This document shows positions 26,828-36,450 of a DNA stretch of 37,585 bases, piece after piece (positions within the stretch are counted from its first letter, which is position 1; each line of letters begins with the position of its first letter). This stretch comes from a virus. Its lineage: Duplodnaviria > Heunggongvirae > Uroviricota > Caudoviricetes. Made by a program: the position numbers and the translations under genes. The stretch is taken from the IMG/VR virus record IMGVR_UViG_2675903368_000016. The stretch is one strand, 5' to 3'. Under the pieces are notes generated by a model. That model had not been told where the DNA came from. It worked only from the letters and a program-made list of their open reading frames with translations, and made no database searches.

Positions 26828-27559
26828 TCATGCACGATCATTTGACTCAGCATCTGCTGCACGCTTGCTGCGCGAAGATGCACTTTTACTATCAATCTTT
26901 CGACAGTTCTTTCTATCCCTGGCTTCATTTTCTTTAAATTTGTTATATGTCTCAGTATCAAAAAACGAAATTGTTTCAACCTCATCTTTTGGTATGAGCA
27001 CACGGAAATCTTCGATATTAAGCCGAGACATTCCACTTATCACACCACTATCAAGATAATGTTGGTGATAGTTAGTCGTGATACTAATCGTTAGATCATC
27101 TTTATCCCGATATCCGCTTAACATCGGGAGAAGTTCAAGGTGCTCTGAAAGCCCGTTTTCTAACGCCGGACAAGTAACAAGACCAACATAGATTTTGCGA
27201 GACGACAGAGTTGCTATGATCGGAAACTGTCTTGCGGACGCTTCCATGAGTAATGATTCGAAAGCGTTATTACCCACAGCTTTAGCTAAGGCATCCCAGC
27301 GACGATCTCCACGTGATGTGCGTAACTTATTTCCAAAACCTGAAATCGCAGCGAGGACAATTGAAATCATAACCCATGCTATCTGTTTGATTTCATTTAT
27401 TCTTTGAAGTTTGTCTTTCGATGAAGACAACATGCCATTAAAACTGTCAGGTGTTAGATTCAAGGCATTAGCCAGCCAACGAAACCCTCCGCTGACGTTC
27501 AAAATAAAGGTGAAAAAACCGCCAAGGAGAAAAAAAAACGATACCCCAGGCAGCCACAA
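26828..27559 (-). CDS. Membrane protein of unknown function, accessory cassette gene 2 (distal frame)
   Basis: 243-aa ORF with hydrophobic segments (FFFLLGGFFTFIL; IAWVMISIVLAAISGF) and a charged C-terminal domain; no ATG at the reported start. Confidence 0.55.
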   Translation of the reverse strand: MWLPGVSFFFLLGGFFTFILNVSGGFRWLANALNLTPDSFNGMLSSSKDKLQRINEIKQIAWVMISIVLAAISGFGNKLRTSRGDRRWDALAKAVGNNAFESLLMEASARQFPIIATLSSRKIYVGLVTCPALENGLSEHLELLPMLSGYRDKDDLTISITTNYHQHYLDSGVISGMSRLNIEDFRVLIPKDEVETISFFDTETYNKFKENEARDRKNCRKIDSKSASSRSKRAADAESNDRA

Positions 27560-27671
27560 AAAAATAAGCGTCCCAGCCGTTGGAACGCTTATATCGGTAT
27601 CTTGTTGAAAGTGATAGGTTTACATAAATAAAACCACTAACCAAAATCACTGCTAAAAGTAATGTTGCCAT
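27468..27671 (-). CDS. N-terminal transmembrane segment ORF, probably the 5' part of the same membrane-protein gene in another frame
   Basis: 67-aa ORF MATLLLAVILVSGFIYVNL...; its ATG overlaps the stop of the upstream 71-aa gene (TAATG); joins the 243-aa frame at a T7/T9 homopolymer region. Confidence 0.45.
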   Translation of the reverse strand: MATLLLAVILVSGFIYVNLSLSTRYRYKRSNGWDAYFFVAAWGIVFFSPWRFFHLYFERQRRVSLAG

Positions 27672-27886
27672 TATCTGGTTCTATTAGTTTTCTCTTTTAC
27701 AGTGCTCGTTTTGATGCCTTCAAGCTTATCCATCTGTGCCTTGATGGCATCCATTGCTCTTTTGTTAGACAAGTCTACGGACACAAAACCATCTTTACTA
27801 AGATTGAGTTTGTCCTGGTTCTCTTTAAGAACCCTTGCCAGACGTTCAACTGGGTTACCCAGGCTAAATGCGGCGATGCTTGACAT
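27671..27886 (-). CDS. Hypothetical 71-aa protein, accessory cassette gene 1
   Basis: ORF MSSIAAFSLGNPVERLARVLKENQDKLNL...; first gene of the leftward AT-rich operon. Confidence 0.5.
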   Translation of the reverse strand: MSSIAAFSLGNPVERLARVLKENQDKLNLSKDGFVSVDLSNKRAMDAIKAQMDKLEGIKTSTVKEKTNRTR

Positions 27887-28156: not shown

Positions 28157-28390
28157 TTAATGCAGCCAGCTGTCGTCTTCCCACACCTTCTGCATAATTT
28201 TCATCACTTGTTTTCTTTCTTCGTCCAGTTGCAATCCGGTCAGTTCCACACCGTTAGAGCTACCTTTGCGGATACGAATTACCGTTTTGGGATACAGAGG
28301 ACGCAGATTGCGGTAAAGCTCGGATTCAAGGGCGTCCAGGGTAGACTGGCTAATCTTCTGCTCTTTATCGATCATTATTTCAATGCGCAT
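28157..28390 (-). CDS. DinI-family protein (186 Tum-like SOS-inducible anti-repressor module)
   Basis: 77-aa ORF MRIEIMIDKEQKISQSTLDALESELYRNL...KIMQKVWEDDSWLH resembles E. coli DinI along its length; downstream of a LexA box. Confidence 0.75.
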   Translation of the reverse strand: MRIEIMIDKEQKISQSTLDALESELYRNLRPLYPKTVIRIRKGSSNGVELTGLQLDEERKQVMKIMQKVWEDDSWLH

Positions 28391-28401
28391 AAAAAGTCAC
28401 C

Positions 28402-28590
28402 TCAACTGATGACATCCATTGAGCGGTTGTATTCGTGGGTTCTGATTTTTGCCATGAGTTCATCTGTTAGTTCAGAAACCCACTGCAAAGCCAGCCCCTT
28501 CTCTTCATCACTACACTCACTAGCCGCTACAAGCTTAAGAAAAAAATCAATGCGCTGGAGCTTCAAAGACTCCAAAAAATAGTCCTGCAT
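28402..28590 (-). CDS. Small protein co-transcribed with the DinI-like gene (possible Tum N-terminal module)
   Basis: 62-aa ORF starting 42 nt downstream of the LexA box and ending 11 nt before the DinI-like gene. Confidence 0.5.
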   Translation of the reverse strand: MQDYFLESLKLQRIDFFLKLVAASECSDEEKGLALQWVSELTDELMAKIRTHEYNRSMDVIS

Positions 28591-28631
28591 CTTTCCTCCT
28601 ATGACACCAAAGCAATACTGTAAATATAACC

Positions 28632-28650
28632 ACTGTTTATATTTACAGTA
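28632..28650. promoter_or_regulatory. LexA operator (SOS box)
   Basis: aCTGTttatatttACAGta matches CTGT-N8-ACAG with an AT-rich spacer; a second CTGT half-site sits at 28617-28620. Confidence 0.75.
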
Positions 28651-28741
28651 TATAATAATCTTACTGATGTAAAACGTTTTTTACGTTCATCAGCCTGATA
28701 TGCCTGGTATTATTAAGAGCACGAATTGTTAACCCGCGTAA

Positions 28742-31156
28742 TTAATACAGGTTTCGCCACTTATCATCTTCCTGCAAACGCTGGTTCCGATAGAAGATAC
28801 GCAGGCCTGCTCCTGACGGAATACTGCCGCCGCGAAGGAGTAAATCGACCTCTTTCTCGCTACCATCAAATCCTCTGGACTTCAGCTCATAGACGAGCTG
28901 CTGTCGCTGATGGTCTGTAATTCGCTGTTTGTAGTCTTTACGCCGTTTCGGTTTAACCAGGCGTAACCTTGCTGCCAGTTCCCGGCGCTCTTTTTTGCTC
29001 ATACTGTGCAGGTAATCGTGCAACTGCTTGTCATCCATGCGGGTAATGTCCGTTCTGGTGCCCCCATCAGCTGATTTATCTTTCTCCTGTTGGTTCAAAT
29101 TTTCAGCAAGGGGACAGTTATTGCCACGAGTCCAAGGGGCGCAAGCGCCCTGGTCGGCTGCCGCCTCCTGAACGTCAACGGCTTTACGAACCATTTTCCA
29201 CTTCACTGCATGAGTGCAGATCTTGCCCTCTGCAATGGGTGACCAGATGCCATAAATACGAATGCCGTGATCGCCATAGGCGGTCGGCTCTTCGTTGATT
29301 TCATAAGCGGTTCTGATGAGGTGATATTTACGGGGAACCAGTACGCCGCCCTGCTTCATGATGTAGGTGGCAAAACAACCAGCATCAGCAGCAGCCAGAA
29401 TGGCATCAAGACGCGGGTTATCCAGTACCGGCGCACCTGCTTTTTTGTCACCCTGTTGCCTTGCCGCCTGACCAGCCAGCAAGCGAAGTTCACGGTAAGC
29501 CTGACGCCCCGGAATACCAAAGAAGCGGAATTGCTGAACACGATGCAGAGACGCCCAGGCATTCACGTATTCAGCGTTATCACGCAGAGATTTACCCGTT
29601 TCCTTGCTGATCTCGCCAGCCAGACCACGACCGTCAATGTTCTTACTGATATATTTCGCGATGTAGCTTGTCGGCGTTCCTTTGCGCGGGTTAATCAACT
29701 CAGACTTAAAGCGCGGCCCAGTGTTATTGCCCAGCTCCTCGCGGTCTTCACGGATGGCAAACTTACGCAGTAATGCAGTGATGGCACGGCGGTCTTTTTT
29801 GCGCATGAAACACAACAGGTGCCAGTGAACTGTGCCATCATGATGCGGCTCAGCCACCCGCACGCCATACCAGCGCAACCCGGCTTTGTGCATCGCCTTA
29901 CGAAATGCAGCAAACATGCCGACCAGATAATCGCTGCTTTGTCTTACCGTCGCGTTTGTCCAGGTCGGGTTTGGTCTGCCGTTATTTAGCGTGGAATGGA
30001 AACGCGACGGACAGGTGATAGTGTAGAAAACGGCGCAGTCACCGCGCATTTCCGCGATAAGCTCCAGACCTTTAACACAGGCCATCATCTCATTGCGGCG
30101 ATGCGCAGGGTTGCTGCTGCTGGCGTTTACCACATCCTCCATGTCCAGCGTGTCGCCGTCTTCGTTCACCAGTTCATGAGAACGGAAAAACTCCAGCGAC
30201 TTACGGCGCTGCTCACGTTTATGCATCACGGCTTCATAGCTGACATAAGGAGATGCTTTTTTGCTGACCAGGCAAACAGCGCGCAACTGCTCTTCCCGCC
30301 ATTCGCAACGCATCTTCCATAATTTCCGATACCACCAGTCGGCGCACAACATACGCGCCAGCGAACCCGGAATGAGTTCATAGGGCACGGGTTTACGGCG
30401 GTTTCTTTTCCGACGGAGTTGCTCAAACGCAGGTGGGATGACATCCAGACGCAGGGTTTCCGCTGCCACCTTTTCCCATGTCTTGCGGATTTCTTCTGGC
30501 TTAACGTCATCGGTGGCATACAAATCACCACAAGCTGCATCAAGGCACATACTCATATGCGCAGCTACCAGGGTGGACAGGCGTTTCACCTGATCCTGAC
30601 TCATTTCAGGCAGGATCAGCAGGCCGTCCAGCCCTTCATGGCTTGCCATAAAGCGAAAAGATGCAGATAGCTGACTGTCGCGTACATGCTCCAGTCGTTC
30701 CAGACATGGCTTAATCGTCTCACGTAAATAGCGGGAATAAGCCTTTGGCCTGCCCAGGCTGCTGAAGTATTCAATACGTTGCATCAGCGGCTTGCTGATA
30801 TGGGAAGGCTGGGCGTTGACGTCCGCCAGAATGACCATGTCTGAATTAAAACGCTGCTGCTCATGCGCCAGCTTTGCCCGGCTAATGAGCTTATCCTGCT
30901 CCATTTCGCGCTGGACAGGATCACGTGATTCATTAAAGAAATAACGCTCCCAGACCTGATCACTCAGTGCCTCGCGGCGCAACTGTTCCTGCTCGTTATC
31001 GGCAGCGTACAGAGTGATCAGGTTTGAAAGCGTAGAAACCGGCGCAACTTCCGCCGGGTCCAGATAAGGGTTAATGGCCTTTTTCGGGCTGTTCCATGAG
31101 AATGCTGCGGCAGCCTCGTTAAAGCCGCAGCAGTTGTTCATATCGGCATGACTCAT
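28742..31156 (-). CDS. A: Replication initiation protein gpA (rolling-circle nickase)
   Basis: 804-aa ORF at the end of the early operon; size and position fit P2/186 A. Confidence 0.8.
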
Positions 31157-32010
31157 GCACGTACTTCGTACACGGCAGAACTATCCACGCCACGCGAATA
31201 ATCAAATCCCATCCAGCAGCGCGGCCCGGAAACAGCAATGATTTCTGTTGCTGATTTACCCTCGCCAGCTGCCACACCGATGCTGCGTTTTACCTTGATA
31301 TAGTGGTGAGTAAAATTGCGATACAGCGAACGGATCAGGGATGTGTCACTGTTAGAAACAATGACCGGATGTCCTTCTGATGACCGATGTTCAAGAACGG
31401 ATGCCAGGTGATACTGGTCATCTTCAGTGAAACCATCAGTGTGATAGCCGGAAAACACACCGTCATATGGCGGATCGCAATACACCACATCTCCCGCCTT
31501 CAACATCGCCAGCGTTTCATCAAAGCTGGCGCAGATAAACGTTGCTCGCTGGGCTTTTTCTGCAAATGTGCGAAGTTCTTTTTCAGGGAAATACGGATTT
31601 TTATAATTACCGTAGGGAATGTTGAAATGCCCGCTCTTGTTATAGCGACATAAACCACGGTAACCGTGACGATTGAGATACAGGAAATATACCGCTTTCA
31701 TGAAATCAGTAATTTCAGTTGAGCAGTTAAACTCCTGCCTTATGTTGTAATAAGCCACCTCCCTGTTTGCGATCTCAAATAAAACTCTGGCGCGAGATAT
31801 AAACGATTCACAATCAGCGGCAACCTTTTTATAGAGGTTGATTAAATCAGGATTAATATCCGCAACCAGATAGCTGGGATAATCCGTTTCCATCATCACA
31901 GCACAGGAACCCGCGAAAGGTTCAACCAGTCGCGGGCCAGCAGGAAGGTATTTTTTCAGTTCTGGCATAATGGCGGTTTTATTTCCCGCCCATTTCAGGA
32001 TGGTGCTCAT
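31153..32010 (-). CDS. DNA adenine methyltransferase (Dam family)
   Basis: [11 protein letters not shown] (AdoMet-binding region) and DPPY catalytic motif; start at the internal Met overlaps the upstream stop. Confidence 0.8.
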
Positions 32011-32234
32011 ACAGCACCTCCGTTGTAATGTTTGCCTTTCAGTTCTGCGATTTCCTGACAGGTAATGCAAAGCTGCACTCCCGGAATGGCGCGGCGTCGT
32101 GCTGGCGGAATTGGCGCTTCACATTCAATGCAAAGTACGCGTGACACGCCCGGTGATTTGGCACGGGCTGCACGGATATGGCGCTGGCGTTCTTCTTCAA
32201 CGCGCTGCTGTACGAGATCCATTGCATCAGCCAT
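32007..32234 (-). CDS. TraR/DksA-family C4 zinc-finger protein
   Basis: 75-aa ORF with C-x2-C ... C-x2-C (CIECEA...CITCQ). Confidence 0.7.
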   Translation of the reverse strand: MADAMDLVQQRVEEERQRHIRAARAKSPGVSRVLCIECEAPIPPARRRAIPGVQLCITCQEIAELKGKHYNGGAV

Positions 32235-34156: not shown

Positions 34157-34753
34157 ATGTCAACATCAAAGTACCCAAGTGAGATCAAAATAAATCCCAA
34201 TAAAGGTGGTAAGGCTGCGATTGAGCGATTAGTCGAAGCCTATGGCTTTACGACACGACAGGCTTTAGCTGATCACTTGGAAGTATCAAAAAGCACACTA
34301 GCGAACAGGTATTTGCGGGATACATTTCCTGCTGACTGGATAATCCAATGTGCTCTTGAAACAGGAACCTCCCTCAAATGGTTAACTACCGGACAAGGCC
34401 TTAAGCAAAGCTCGCTGACAGCAGCTACAGAAGAGCTTGTTAAGTTTCGCCTTGCCGCAGGCAAAATGATTGAAGACGGTTCATATGTCTTCGATTCATC
34501 ATTTCTTCCTGCAAACCTTTCATCACCAATTGTTGTTCAGGATGGACTCGTCACATACATTTGTGATCAAAAATTTTCTGAAGTACTTGATGGAAACTGG
34601 TTAATCAATATCGACGGAACCTATTCCATTCGAAAAATCACAAGGCTTCCTAAAGGAATGATTAAAATTACAACGGCAGAGAATAGCTTTGAATGTGCAT
34701 TTTCTGATATTGAAGTGGTTGCTTGTATAAGAAGTACAATAGTCTCGAATTAA
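34157..34753 (+). CDS. cI: CI-type immunity repressor
   Basis: 198-aa ORF with N-terminal HTH (TTRQALADHLEVSKSTLANR), divergent from apl and upstream of int. Confidence 0.7.
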   Translation: MSTSKYPSEIKINPNKGGKAAIERLVEAYGFTTRQALADHLEVSKSTLANRYLRDTFPADWIIQCALETGTSLKWLTTGQGLKQSSLTAATEELVKFRLAAGKMIEDGSYVFDSSFLPANLSSPIVVQDGLVTYICDQKFSEVLDGNWLINIDGTYSIRKITRLPKGMIKITTAENSFECAFSDIEVVACIRSTIVSN

Positions 34754-34773: not shown

Positions 34774-36450
34774 ATGAATTCATTTGCCATCGTTATACTC
34801 TTATTAGCATTTCTCGCCCCTGTTCTAGCTGTAATATTATTTAAACAAAGTAAAAAACACAAAGCGGCTATAGATAACCTGACAGCTAACAACATAGCCC
34901 TTTCTAACCAACTGATTGAAAATCAAGAAAAACTAGCACAGACCGTACGAGAATTATCAGAGCTTGAAGGGCGAGCAGCACCATTGTGGCAATACGAAGA
35001 ATTGCACAGCGCAGTAATGGATGCAGAGAATAAGATAAAAAATGCGGACTCAATAGCCAAGCAAAAAATAGATGAAGCCCAAATTAAGGCGGCTAAAACA
35101 GTAAACGAAGCAAATTATCAAGCTCAGATGACAATAAGCAACGCTAATAGCGAAGCTATAGCAATCACCAAAGACGCTCGCGATGCACGCCTGAAAGCCA
35201 AAGAACGTCTTGATAATGCTAATAATAAAGCAAATGAGCTAATCTCAAATGCTAATGACAATGCAGTAAAAATTATTTCTGATGCAGAAGAAAGAGCAAA
35301 GGAGATTGCTGGTTCAGCATATGAAGCTAAAGAGTTTGCAGAAAAATATGAAGCAGTTGCAAAATCAATGAAAAATAAAATTGAAGGTTATGGTGATGAA
35401 TGGATCATCCCTAACCGTAGTGTACTTGATGAGCTGGCAGAAAATTATGAATTTACAGATGCAGGCAAGGAATTACAAAAAGCCAGAGAGTTAACCAAAT
35501 CATTAATAAAAACTAATAAAGCTGCTTCGTGTGATTATGTTGAGCAAAACAGGCGTAATACTGCCATAAACTTTGTTTTGGATGCCTTCAATGGAAGAGT
35601 TGACAGTATTTTATCAAAAGTCAAACACAACAATTTTGGAAAACTTTCCCAAGAAATAAAAGATGCATTTCAACTAGTAAATTACAATGGCTCTGCCTTT
35701 AGGTCCGCAAAAATAAGTGACATCTATCTTCAGGCAAGACTCAACGAGCTAAAATGGGGTGTAGCAGTTAATGAAATTATGCTCGAAGAAAAAGAAGAGC
35801 AAAGAAGGATTAAAGAACAGCTTCGTGAAGAGGAAAGAGCTCGTAGAGAATATGAAAAAGCGATAAAAGAAGCTGAAAAAGAAGAAAAAGCTATTCAGCA
35901 AGCTATAAATAAAGCAACGAAAGAACTTATGCTTGCAAATGAAGAACAACGCTTAGCTTTAGAGCAAAAAATAGCTGAACTACAGTTAAAATATGAAGAA
36001 GCTGAAGCTAAAAATCAACGAGCTATTTCTATGGCTCAACAAACCAGATCAGGCCACGTCTATATCATTAGTAATATTGGTTCATTTGGCGAAGATGTAT
36101 ATAAAATTGGAATGACACGCCGCCTTGAACCACTTGATCGTGTTCGTGAACTCGGAGATGCTAGTGTTCCTTTTTCGTTCGATGTTCATGCGATGATTTA
36201 TAGTGATGATGCACCATCATTAGAAAACCATCTGCATAAAGTTTTCAACGAAAAGCAGGTCAATAAAATTAACTCACGAAAAGAGTTTTTTAACGTAAAT
36301 TTAAAAGAAATCAAATCAGTTATTGAAGACATGAACATCAACGCCCACTGGACAATGTTTGCAGAGGCGAAAGAATATAGAGAGTCTCTAGCTATTGAGC
36401 AGGAGCGCAAAGCAGCCACTTCCGCCAACGATGAACTACATGTTGCTTAG
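34774..36450 (+). CDS. Membrane-anchored coiled-coil protein with C-terminal GIY-YIG-like (T5orf172-type) domain; lysogeny-operon moron
   Basis: 558 aa: N-terminal TM helix, long coiled coil rich in A/E/K/N, C-terminal GHVYIISN...YKIGMTRRLEPLDRVRELG...; AT-rich; 20 nt after the cI stop. Confidence 0.7.
   Translation: MNSFAIVILLLAFLAPVLAVILFKQSKKHKAAIDNLTANNIALSNQLIENQEKLAQTVRELSELEGRAAPLWQYEELHSAVMDAENKIKNADSIAKQKIDEAQIKAAKTVNEANYQAQMTISNANSEAIAITKDARDARLKAKERLDNANNKANELISNANDNAVKIISDAEERAKEIAGSAYEAKEFAEKYEAVAKSMKNKIEGYGDEWIIPNRSVLDELAENYEFTDAGKELQKARELTKSLIKTNKAASCDYVEQNRRNTAINFVLDAFNGRVDSILSKVKHNNFGKLSQEIKDAFQLVNYNGSAFRSAKISDIYLQARLNELKWGVAVNEIMLEEKEEQRRIKEQLREEERARREYEKAIKEAEKEEKAIQQAINKATKELMLANEEQRLALEQKIAELQLKYEEAEAKNQRAISMAQQTRSGHVYIISNIGSFGEDVYKIGMTRRLEPLDRVRELGDASVPFSFDVHAMIYSDDAPSLENHLHKVFNEKQVNKINSRKEFFNVNLKEIKSVIEDMNINAHWTMFAEAKEYRESLAIEQERKAATSANDELHVA

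What the first reader, a model, noticed from the sequence alone, without database searches (positions are those of the whole stretch)
28157..28650. LexA-box-controlled DinI/Tum-like module implies SOS-inducible, 186-type prophage control
A near-consensus SOS box sits 42 nt upstream of a two-gene unit whose second product is DinI-like. In coliphage 186 the LexA-repressed tum gene encodes the anti-repressor that makes the prophage UV-inducible, whereas P2 is not SOS-inducible. Together with apl, cII and the CI arrangement this places the element on the 186 side of the family, carrying P2-like accessory positions.
Basis: partly seen in the sequence, partly recalled or inferred. Interest (0 to 1): 0.5.

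Follow-up and report, generated by a model that had tools for sequence, protein, structure and literature searches.

The report
Split tum SOS operon of prophage
This is the DNA-damage switch of a common Fels-2/186-type prophage of E. coli: a LexA-repressed promoter drives a small antirepressor gene and a DinI-like gene, an arrangement already described for phages 186, PSP3, Fels-2 and SopEΦ.

Summary
On the minus strand, a LexA box (28631-28650) lies 42 nt upstream of a 62-aa ORF (28402-28590). An 11-nt gap separates that ORF from a 77-aa DinI-family gene (28157-28390).

The interpretation, 186-type control by LexA and an antirepressor, is supported. The module encodes proteins 98-100% identical to the split tum genes of Salmonella phage Fels-2. 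It sits just downstream of replication gene A, as tum does in 186. The element also carries 186-type CI, Apl and CII.

I add two refinements.
- The likely antirepressor is the first, 62-aa gene (tumA), not the DinI-like product. TumA is a remote, profile-level homologue of the N-terminal half of 186 Tum. The DinI-like gene (tumB) is undetectable in 13 of 33 related loci.
- The operator is not one box but a colicin-type pair of overlapping LexA boxes (28616-28650). It matches a bacteriocin promoter operator at 35 of 39 positions, and 22 of 33 distinct upstream sequences keep the pair.

One open point remains. TumA is nearly invariant, yet the partner CI proteins are mosaic (42% identity to Fels-2 CI). 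Whether TumA inactivates this particular CI is therefore inferred, not shown.

The module occurs in 1125 of 5426 complete E. coli genomes. It is already known and of low interest.

The parts
28668..28673 (-). -35 hexamer TTTACA of the tum promoter (p95 equivalent)
   Evidence: By eye and by alignment: TTTACA, 17 nt, TACTGT. The block tTTtAc is conserved in the relatives while the 17-nt spacer varies. The layout matches the annotated 186 p95 (TTCACA ... TACTGT). The consensus scanner did not call it because TACTGT matches TATAAT at only 3 of 6 positions.
28631..28650 (-). LexA box 1 (minus strand TACTGTAAATATAAACAGTG); its left half TACTGT, or TATACT at 28647-28652, serves as the -10
   Evidence: Only CTGT-N8-ACAG in the window. 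Has 3 mismatches to the 20-mer consensus, with 0 of 100 shuffles reaching that. CTGT-N8-ACAG is present in 27 of 33 distinct upstream sequences from relatives.
28616..28635 (-). LexA box 2 (minus strand CAGTGGTTATATTTACAGTA; core GTGG-N8-ACAG). Its core starts on the last G of box 1's CAG
   Evidence: The 39-nt double site matches 35 of 39 positions of the double SOS box upstream of the colicin-like bacteriocin gene of plasmid pCKO3. The double motif is kept in 22 of 33 distinct relatives and occurs once per locus, always just upstream of tumA. Colicin double boxes bind two LexA dimers (PMC2994835 and PMC4482635).
28595..28600 (-). Ribosome-binding site AGGAGG of tumA
   Evidence: Read from the sequence. 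AGGAGG is conserved in the alignment of relatives.
28402..28590 (-). tumA: 62-aa acidic helical-hairpin protein, the probable antirepressor of CI
   Evidence: phrog_698 E=3.6e-38. The N-terminal half of 186 Tum hits the same phrog_698 (E=5.9e-6) and the shared phrog_8554 and phrog_1993. hhalign is collinear over residues 1-65 / 1-63 with P=5e-4. It is 98% identical to Fels-2 STM2728. dN/dS is 0.07. AF2 gives pLDDT 91.6 with helices 2-23 and 28-61. In PSP3 the upstream gene carries the antirepressor activity (PMC3121763).
28157..28390 (-). tumB: 77-aa DinI-family protein, an accessory SOS/RecA modulator. Its RBS GAGGTG overlaps the tumA stop codon
   Evidence: PF06183 E=6.6e-23. 41% identical to the C-terminal half of 186 Tum. 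100% identical to Fels-2 STM2726.1, annotated 'TumB-like'. Matches the E. coli DinI structure 1GHH at E=2.7e-6. dN/dS is 0.07. No homologue detected in 13 of 33 related loci.
34157..34753 (+). cI: 186-type immunity repressor, the presumed target of TumA
   Evidence: PF07022 + PF16452, with no Peptidase_S24 hit. 32% identical to 186 CI and 42% to Fels-2 CI.

Best explanation
This is the SOS operon of a Fels-2-like (186 lineage) P2-family prophage, with the tum gene split into tumA and tumB. In undamaged cells, LexA occupies a colicin-type pair of overlapping boxes. The pair starts at the -10 element and extends over the expected transcription start, so the promoter stays shut. DNA damage activates RecA and LexA cleaves itself. 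The promoter then fires and both genes are translated, probably coupled. TumA, a 62-aa acidic helical hairpin, binds the 186-type CI repressor and takes it off its operators. This releases the lytic promoter and induces the prophage reversibly, without repressor cleavage. TumB, the DinI-like protein, modulates RecA filaments and the SOS response and is dispensable for the switch. Shown here: the sequence features, their homologies and their conservation. Inferred from homologues: LexA binding, TumA-CI binding and induction.
For: - LexA box statistics: the site is unique in the window and no shuffle reached it.
- Phylogenetic footprint: across 33 distinct upstream sequences the -35 hexamer, TATACTGT, ACAGT, TACAGT and the RBS are conserved, while the spacers vary.
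- The double motif occurs once per 20-kb locus, always directly upstream of tumA.
- The operator matches 35 of 39 positions of a bacteriocin double SOS box. That class was footprinted with two LexA dimers.
- The layout is the same as the annotated 186 p95/LexA/tum.
- TumA is linked at profile level to the N-terminal half of 186 Tum and to PSP3 TumA.
- TumB is DinI-like and matches the C-terminal half of 186 Tum.
- Both proteins are near-identical to those of Fels-2.
- Both ORFs are under purifying selection, with dN/dS about 0.07.
- CI has the 186 CI domains and gave no Peptidase_S24 hit, so induction by self-cleavage is not expected.
- Literature: Fels-2 and PSP3 carry a split tum, and the PSP3 upstream gene is the antirepressor. 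lexA null is lethal in LT2 because of Fels-2. SopEΦ, whose TumA is 88.7% identical, is induced via SOS and Tum.
Against: - There is no experiment on this element.
- Pairwise BLAST finds no similarity between the 62-aa ORF and 186 Tum or PSP3 TumA. The homology rests on PHROG profiles and a weak hhalign score (probability 31%).
- The PSP3 assignment of antirepressor activity is a personal communication cited second-hand.
- TumA is 71-100% conserved, yet partner CI proteins vary widely: N-terminal domain 42-94% and C-terminal domain 24-82% identical to the window's CI. TumA and CI show no covariation (Spearman about 0).
- One locus pairs this TumA type with a 186-like CI. A cognate TumA-CI fit in this prophage is therefore unproven.
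- Box 2 lacks the canonical C of CTG and has 5 mismatches to the 20-mer consensus (counted by eye).
Confidence: 0.85

Rival explanations
1. The DinI-like second product (TumB) is the antirepressor, as the finding's 'DinI/Tum-like' wording implies. The 62-aa ORF would then be an accessory or leader peptide.
For: TumB is the part with clear pairwise similarity to 186 Tum (41% identity). The 186 record names all tum products 'RecA filament binding protein DinI'.
Against: In 186, the truncated products that contain only the DinI-like part are annotated as modulating SOS induction. Only the full-length product is annotated as inhibiting CI DNA binding. In PSP3 the upstream gene carries the antirepressor activity. 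No TumB homologue is detected in 13 of 33 loci that keep TumA and the LexA site. Non-polar dinI-homologue deletions in Gifsy prophages had no effect on induction. TumA is under strong purifying selection.
Confidence: 0.06
2. The module is truly LexA-controlled but does not induce this prophage. Mosaic exchange may have paired a Fels-2-type TumA with a CI it no longer recognises. The operon would then act only as a host SOS modulator (DinI-like), as a driver of downstream cargo, or in trans on other P2-like prophages.
For: CI is only 42% identical to Fels-2 CI while TumA is 98% identical. TumA and CI do not covary across 28 loci. A Fels-2-type TumA is paired with a 186-like CI in Pantoea stewartii. 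Trans-acting antirepressors across prophages are documented.
Against: The CI N-terminal HTH domain is well conserved among all partners; many columns are 90% or more identical, and it is 71% identical to Fels-2 CI. That gives a plausible common TumA target. TumA, its promoter and its operator are maintained under purifying selection with every CI type seen. This is hard to explain if most pairings were non-functional.
Confidence: 0.12
3. The LexA-like sequence is a chance AT-rich palindrome with no regulatory role.
For: A bare CTGT-N8-ACAG is expected 0.6 times per window by chance.
Against: The full 20-mer match was never reached in 100 shuffles, and the double motif in only 4 of 100. It is conserved at the same position in dozens of diverged relatives. 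It is near-identical to colicin-type LexA operators (footprinting).
Confidence: 0.02

Closest known systems
Fels-2 (Salmonella LT2) STM2728 / STM2726.1 and PSP3 tumA / tumB: split tum SOS operon
   Same: Two ORFs (62 + 77 aa) with the same order, spacing and position downstream of gene A. Proteins are 98% and 100% identical to those of Fels-2, and DNA is 97.8% identical including the operator. PSP3 has the same tumA + tumB layout with a LexA box.
   Different: The DNA downstream of tumB differs from Fels-2; the match ends at window 28159. CI is only 42% identical to Fels-2 CI. PSP3 TumA belongs to another PHROG (1993) and PSP3 has a single LexA box about 20 nt from the start codon.
Coliphage 186 p95-tum (LexA-repressed antirepressor Tum, 146 aa)
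   Same: LexA box overlapping the -10 of a promoter downstream of gene A. An antirepressor half plus a DinI-like half. 186-type CI, Apl and CII switch.
   Different: 186 Tum is one fused polypeptide with internal starts; here a stop codon and an 11-nt gap split it. The N-terminal halves are similar only at profile level. 186 has one LexA box; this element has two overlapping boxes. The downstream gene is unrelated to 186 orf97.
Colicin/bacteriocin promoters with two overlapping SOS boxes (for example cea8, cka, and the klebicin-like gene of pCKO3)
   Same: The 39-nt operator TATACTGTAAATATAAACAGTGGTTATATTTACAGTATT matches TATACTGTATATAAAACCAGTGGTTATATGTACAGTATT at 35 of 39 positions. In both cases the site lies at or just downstream of the -10.
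   Different: It controls a prophage antirepressor, not a toxin/lysis operon. The -35 region and the flanks are unrelated. Co-regulators known for colicins (IscR, AsnC) were not examined here.
Gifsy-1/2/3 LexA-controlled dinI-antirepressor operons (GfoA, GftA, GfhA)
   Same: A LexA-repressed operon combines a DinI homologue with a small antirepressor that inactivates a non-cleavable repressor.
   Different: The gene order is reversed, with dinI first. The phages are lambdoid, not P2-like. No sequence relation to TumA was tested or claimed.

Membership tests
186-type SOS operon (LexA-repressed tum) | LexA box overlapping the promoter immediately upstream of tum | tested here: met
   Box at 28631-28650 with 3 mismatches to consensus, unique in the window, 0 of 100 shuffles. 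TTTACA-17-TACTGT layout as in the annotated p95. Conserved in relatives.
186-type SOS operon (LexA-repressed tum) | Antirepressor moiety homologous to the N-terminal half of Tum | tested here: inconclusive
   Pairwise BLAST is negative. Profile level is positive: 186 Tum residues 1-70 hit phrog_698 (the TumA family) at E=5.9e-6, and both hit phrog_8554 and phrog_1993. hhalign gives P=5e-4 but probability only 31%. Synteny supports homology.
186-type SOS operon (LexA-repressed tum) | DinI-like C-terminal moiety | tested here: met
   PF06183 E=6.6e-23. 41% identity to Tum residues 71-145.
186-type SOS operon (LexA-repressed tum) | Location downstream of replication gene A, together with a 186-type CI/Apl/CII switch | tested here: met
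   Gene A (PF05840) at 28742-31156 lies directly upstream. CI has PF07022 + PF16452, CII has PF06892, and Apl matches phrog_575.
186-type SOS operon (LexA-repressed tum) | LexA binding, DNA-damage induction, and Tum-CI binding that blocks operator binding | not testable with these tools
   Known only for homologues: 186, Fels-2 and SopEΦ.
Split tumA/tumB (Fels-2 / PSP3 type) | tum coding region divided into two ORFs by a stop codon, antirepressor gene first and DinI homologue second | tested here: met
   62-aa and 77-aa ORFs separated by 11 nt. 98% and 100% identical to the Fels-2 pair. Described for Fels-2 and PSP3 in PMC3121763.
DinI family | Pfam PF06183 above the gathering score; similarity to E. 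coli DinI | tested here: met
   81.3 bits against a cut-off of 24.2. Matches 1GHH DinI at E=2.7e-6.
Chromosomal DinI orthologue (NCBIfam NF007893 equivalog) | Score above the equivalog cut-off (111 bits) | tested here: not met
   42.7 bits. It is a phage DinI-like paralogue, not the host dinI.
Colicin-type double overlapping SOS box | CTG-N10-CAG followed by a second box (GTG-N10-CAG) that shares the last G, placed at or just after the -10 | tested here: met
   CTGTAAATATAAACAGTGGTTATATTTACAG at 28618-28648. Matches the pCKO3 bacteriocin operator at 35 of 39 positions.
Colicin-type double overlapping SOS box | Occupancy by two LexA dimers, giving tight repression and delayed induction | not testable with these tools
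   Shown for colicin promoters only.
Lambda-type induction (repressor self-cleavage) | Repressor with a Peptidase_S24 (LexA-like) C-terminal domain | tested here: not met
   The CI C-terminus is PF16452 (Phage_CI_C). No S24 hit at E<=0.01.
P2-type (non-inducible) switch | Short C repressor plus Cox, with no cII and no tum | tested here: not met
   The window has a 198-aa 186-type CI, a CII and the tum module. The definition of the P2 layout is from general knowledge.

The most novel reading that the evidence does not exclude
Two readings are not excluded. First, Fels-2-type prophages may have replaced the single p95 LexA box of 186/PSP3 with a colicin-type double operator, which would set a higher damage threshold or a delay for induction. 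Second, TumA may be a generalist antirepressor that recognises the conserved HTH domain shared by many heteroimmune CI repressors. One SOS-induced prophage could then cross-induce other P2-like prophages of different immunity.
Probability: 0.3. Interest if true: 0.4.

Novelty: already known. Interest (0 to 1): 0.15.

Why it matters
The module explains how a very common E. coli prophage type, present in about a fifth of complete genomes, would respond to DNA damage. The route is a LexA-controlled antirepressor rather than repressor cleavage, so induction is reversible and depends on lexA. This is textbook for 186 and documented for Fels-2, PSP3 and SopEΦ, so the finding mainly serves correct annotation. 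The 62-aa 'hypothetical protein' should be read as tumA, the probable antirepressor, and the 'DinI-like protein' as tumB. The double LexA operator and the pairing of one TumA type with many CI types are small, testable additions.

Tried and rejected
- Pairwise BLAST of the 62-aa ORF against 186 Tum and PSP3 TumA found nothing. Only profile searches linked them.
- Pfam, NCBIfam, PADLOC and PDB sequence searches gave nothing for the 62-aa ORF.
- The generic promoter scanner did not call the tum promoter, because TACTGT is a poor -10 by consensus. I relied instead on the 186 p95 annotation and on conservation.
- The two terminator-like hits are probably spurious. One (28396-28413) overlaps the tumA stop codon and the tumB RBS. 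The other (27564-27592) lies inside a coding sequence.
- I tested for TumA/CI covariation as evidence of a cognate pair and found none.
- I could not read Bunny et al. 2002 or Gillor et al. 2008; neither is held. Their content is cited second-hand.
- I did not compute a LexA heterology index, because the Lewis matrix was not available.
- The downstream 243-aa ORF is not related to 186 orf97.
- I did not run the large homologue searches or fold searches. The question was already answered by close relatives.

Full report
**Observation.** Two ORFs lie head-to-tail on the minus strand: 28402..28590 (62 aa) and 28157..28390 (77 aa). An 11-nt gap separates them, and the second ORF's RBS (GAGGTG) overlaps the first ORF's stop codon. 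The 77-aa product is a DinI-family protein (PF06183, E=6.6e-23). It is 41% identical to residues 71-145 of coliphage 186 Tum and matches the E. coli DinI structure 1GHH. CTGT-N8-ACAG occurs once in the window, at 28633-28648. The 20-mer at 28631-28650 has three mismatches to the LexA consensus. It is the only such site in 37.6 kb, and 0 of 100 shuffles gave one. The 42-nt distance to the ATG at 28590 is exact.

Read on the coding (minus) strand, the region is:

TTTACA-(17 nt)-TACTGTAAATATAAACAGTGGTTATATTTACAGTA-(15 nt)-AGGAGG-(4 nt)-ATG

- After box 1 (TACTGT...ACAGTG, 28650->28631) comes a second box with core GTGG-N8-ACAG (28635->28616). Its core begins on the last G of box 1.
- The combined motif CTG-N10-CAGKG-N10-CAG occurs once in the window (4 of 100 shuffles).
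- A 40-nt query of this site hit 910 plasmid records. In pCKO3 the match lies about 40 nt upstream of a colicin-like bacteriocin gene, followed by immunity and lysis genes. It reads TATACTGTATATAAAACCAGTGGTTATATGTACAGTATT, which is 35 of 39 identical to the window.
[quoted passage not shown] This keeps basal expression undetectable and delays induction (PMC2994835; PMC4482635 with footprints).

**Relatives.**
- The 661-bp region is 97.8% identical to Salmonella phage Fels-2 and 90-97% identical to many Klebsiella, Escherichia and Salmonella P2-like phages.
- The two proteins are 61/62 and 77/77 identical to Fels-2 STM2728 and STM2726.1. The latter is annotated as similar to PSP3 TumB.
- PSP3 is annotated with tumA ('similar to 5' end 186 tum; UV induction of prophage') and tumB, downstream of gene A and behind a LexA box.
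- The 186 record annotates p95, a LexA site whose left half is the -10, and tum ('expression repressed by LexA; inhibits CI DNA binding'). The shorter in-frame DinI-like products are annotated as only 'modulating SOS induction'.
- The module is present in 1125 of 5426 complete E. coli genomes. There it is annotated 'DinI-like family protein | hypothetical protein | replication endonuclease'.

**Is the 62-aa ORF the other half of tum?**
- Pairwise BLAST says no.
- Profiles say yes. The ORF belongs to phrog_698 (E=3.6e-38). The N-terminal 70 residues of 186 Tum hit phrog_698 at E=5.9e-6 over the same positions (6-44), phrog_8554 at 3.4e-12, and phrog_1993 (PSP3 TumA's family) at 1.5e-23. The window ORF hits phrog_8554 at 2.4e-8 and phrog_1993 at 2.2e-3.
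- hhalign of a 16-sequence TumA alignment against 186 Tum gives a collinear N-terminal alignment (residues 1-65 / 1-63, P=5e-4, probability 31%).
- A three-way alignment shows a shared core: hydrophobic helix, Cys, an acidic turn, then LAL-x-(L/W)-(I/V)-(A/S)-(E/D)-L.
- Both ORFs are under strong purifying selection, with dN/dS about 0.07.
- AlphaFold2 predicts TumA as a confident helical hairpin (pLDDT 91.6, helices 2-23 and 28-61). The protein has 12 acidic and 7 basic residues.
- The literature states that Fels-2 and PSP3 have tum split by a stop codon. [quoted passage not shown] 2002 and a personal communication).

**Conservation test in 33 species-representative genomes.**
- The upstream regions show a clear footprint. 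The A-tract with TTTAC(A), TATACTGT, A(A/C)CAGT, TACAGT and AGGAGG are conserved, while the spacers between them vary freely.
- 27 of 33 distinct sequences keep CTGT-N8-ACAG and 22 of 33 keep the double motif. That motif occurs exactly once per 20-kb locus, always just upstream of tumA.
- Pantoea and Erwinia relatives have a single box about 20 nt from the start codon, as do 186 and PSP3.
- No TumB homologue is detected in 13 of the 33 loci, and it is truncated in a few more. These loci still keep TumA and the operator. This fits TumB being an accessory gene. Note that the loci were collected through TumA, so the reverse case could not be seen.

**The target.**
- The window's CI (34157-34753) has the two 186 CI domains, PF07022 and PF16452, and gave no Peptidase_S24 hit.
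- It is 32% identical to 186 CI and only 42% identical to Fels-2 CI.
- CII is PF06892, and Apl is a Cox-like excisionase/repressor.
- cI and apl face each other as in 186.
- Across the related loci, the CI N-terminal HTH domain is fairly conserved: mean pairwise identity 67%, with many columns at least 90% identical. The C-terminal domain is mosaic, with mean identity 37%.
- TumA identity does not covary with either CI domain (Spearman about 0).
- One locus, from Pantoea stewartii, pairs a Fels-2-type TumA (84% identical) with a 186-like CI.
- Either TumA recognises a conserved CI surface, or some pairings are non-functional. This is the main uncertainty for the claim that this particular prophage is SOS-inducible.

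**Mechanism (inferred).** LexA dimers on the double operator block the promoter. DNA damage leads to LexA self-cleavage, and tumA-tumB are then transcribed. TumA sequesters CI reversibly, as shown for 186 Tum, and lytic development follows. TumB acts on RecA filaments, like DinI. Experimental support exists only for homologues:
- lexA null is lethal in LT2 because of Fels-2.
- SopEΦ, whose TumA is 88.7% identical, is induced by inflammation via SOS and Tum.

**Verdict.** The system is already known and very common, so interest is low. The only mildly new points are the colicin-type double operator at a prophage antirepressor promoter and the pairing of one TumA type with many CI types. Both are testable.

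Noticed in passing
window 34774-36450 (+), between cI and int: A 558-aa cargo gene matches the anti-phage defence system PD-Lambda-1 (PADLOC E=2.4e-120; DUF4041 + T5orf172/MUG113 domains). It sits at an accessory position between the repressor and integrase genes.
   Followed up: partly
window 27530-27538 (A9 on + strand, T9 on the coding strand): A homopolymer run is one T longer than in the otherwise identical prophage of E. coli CP8-3_Sichuan (T8). This splits a 280-aa membrane-protein gene (phrog_3630) into 67-aa and 243-aa frames. It could be a sequencing error, a pseudogene or a slippage-prone tract.
   Followed up: partly
window 27671-27886 (-) and 26828-27671 (-): A 71-aa ORF (phrog_9843) abuts the phrog_3630 gene downstream of tumB, after a 270-bp AT-rich gap. 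The pair recurs in several related loci. It has no PADLOC or Pfam hit and is unrelated to 186 orf97. The Fels-2 DNA match ends at window 28159, although Fels-2 also carries a 243-aa ORF at this position that was not compared. Whether the SOS promoter reads through into this cargo is unknown.
   Followed up: partly
loci L004-L036 (CI genes about 5-8 kb upstream of tumA): The 186-type CI repressors paired with this TumA family have a conserved N-terminal HTH domain, including a near-invariant S(K/Q)STMANR segment. Their C-terminal domains are strongly mosaic. L025 (Pantoea stewartii) combines a Fels-2-type TumA with a 186-like CI.
   Followed up: partly
plasmid collection; L038 1963-2001 (pCKO3): A 40-nt query of the double LexA operator matched 910 plasmid records, 779 of them over at least 80% of its length. 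The listed top hits include many small ColE1-type plasmids. In the one inspected, the site lies upstream of a colicin-like bacteriocin gene. Whether the 35/39 identity reflects shared ancestry or only LexA-imposed constraint is unresolved.
   Followed up: partly
window 31153-32070 (-): An ORF overlaps the start of replication gene A, at the position where Fels-2 has its 'retron EC67 DNA adenine methylase'-like gene. The corresponding gene in the identical E. coli prophage is annotated 'DNA adenine methylase'.
   Followed up: no
window 28396-28413 (-): A short hairpin plus T-run spans the tumA stop codon and the tumB RBS (GTCATCAGTTGAGGTGAC TTTTT). It may be a chance match, or it could lower tumB expression relative to tumA.
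   Followed up: no
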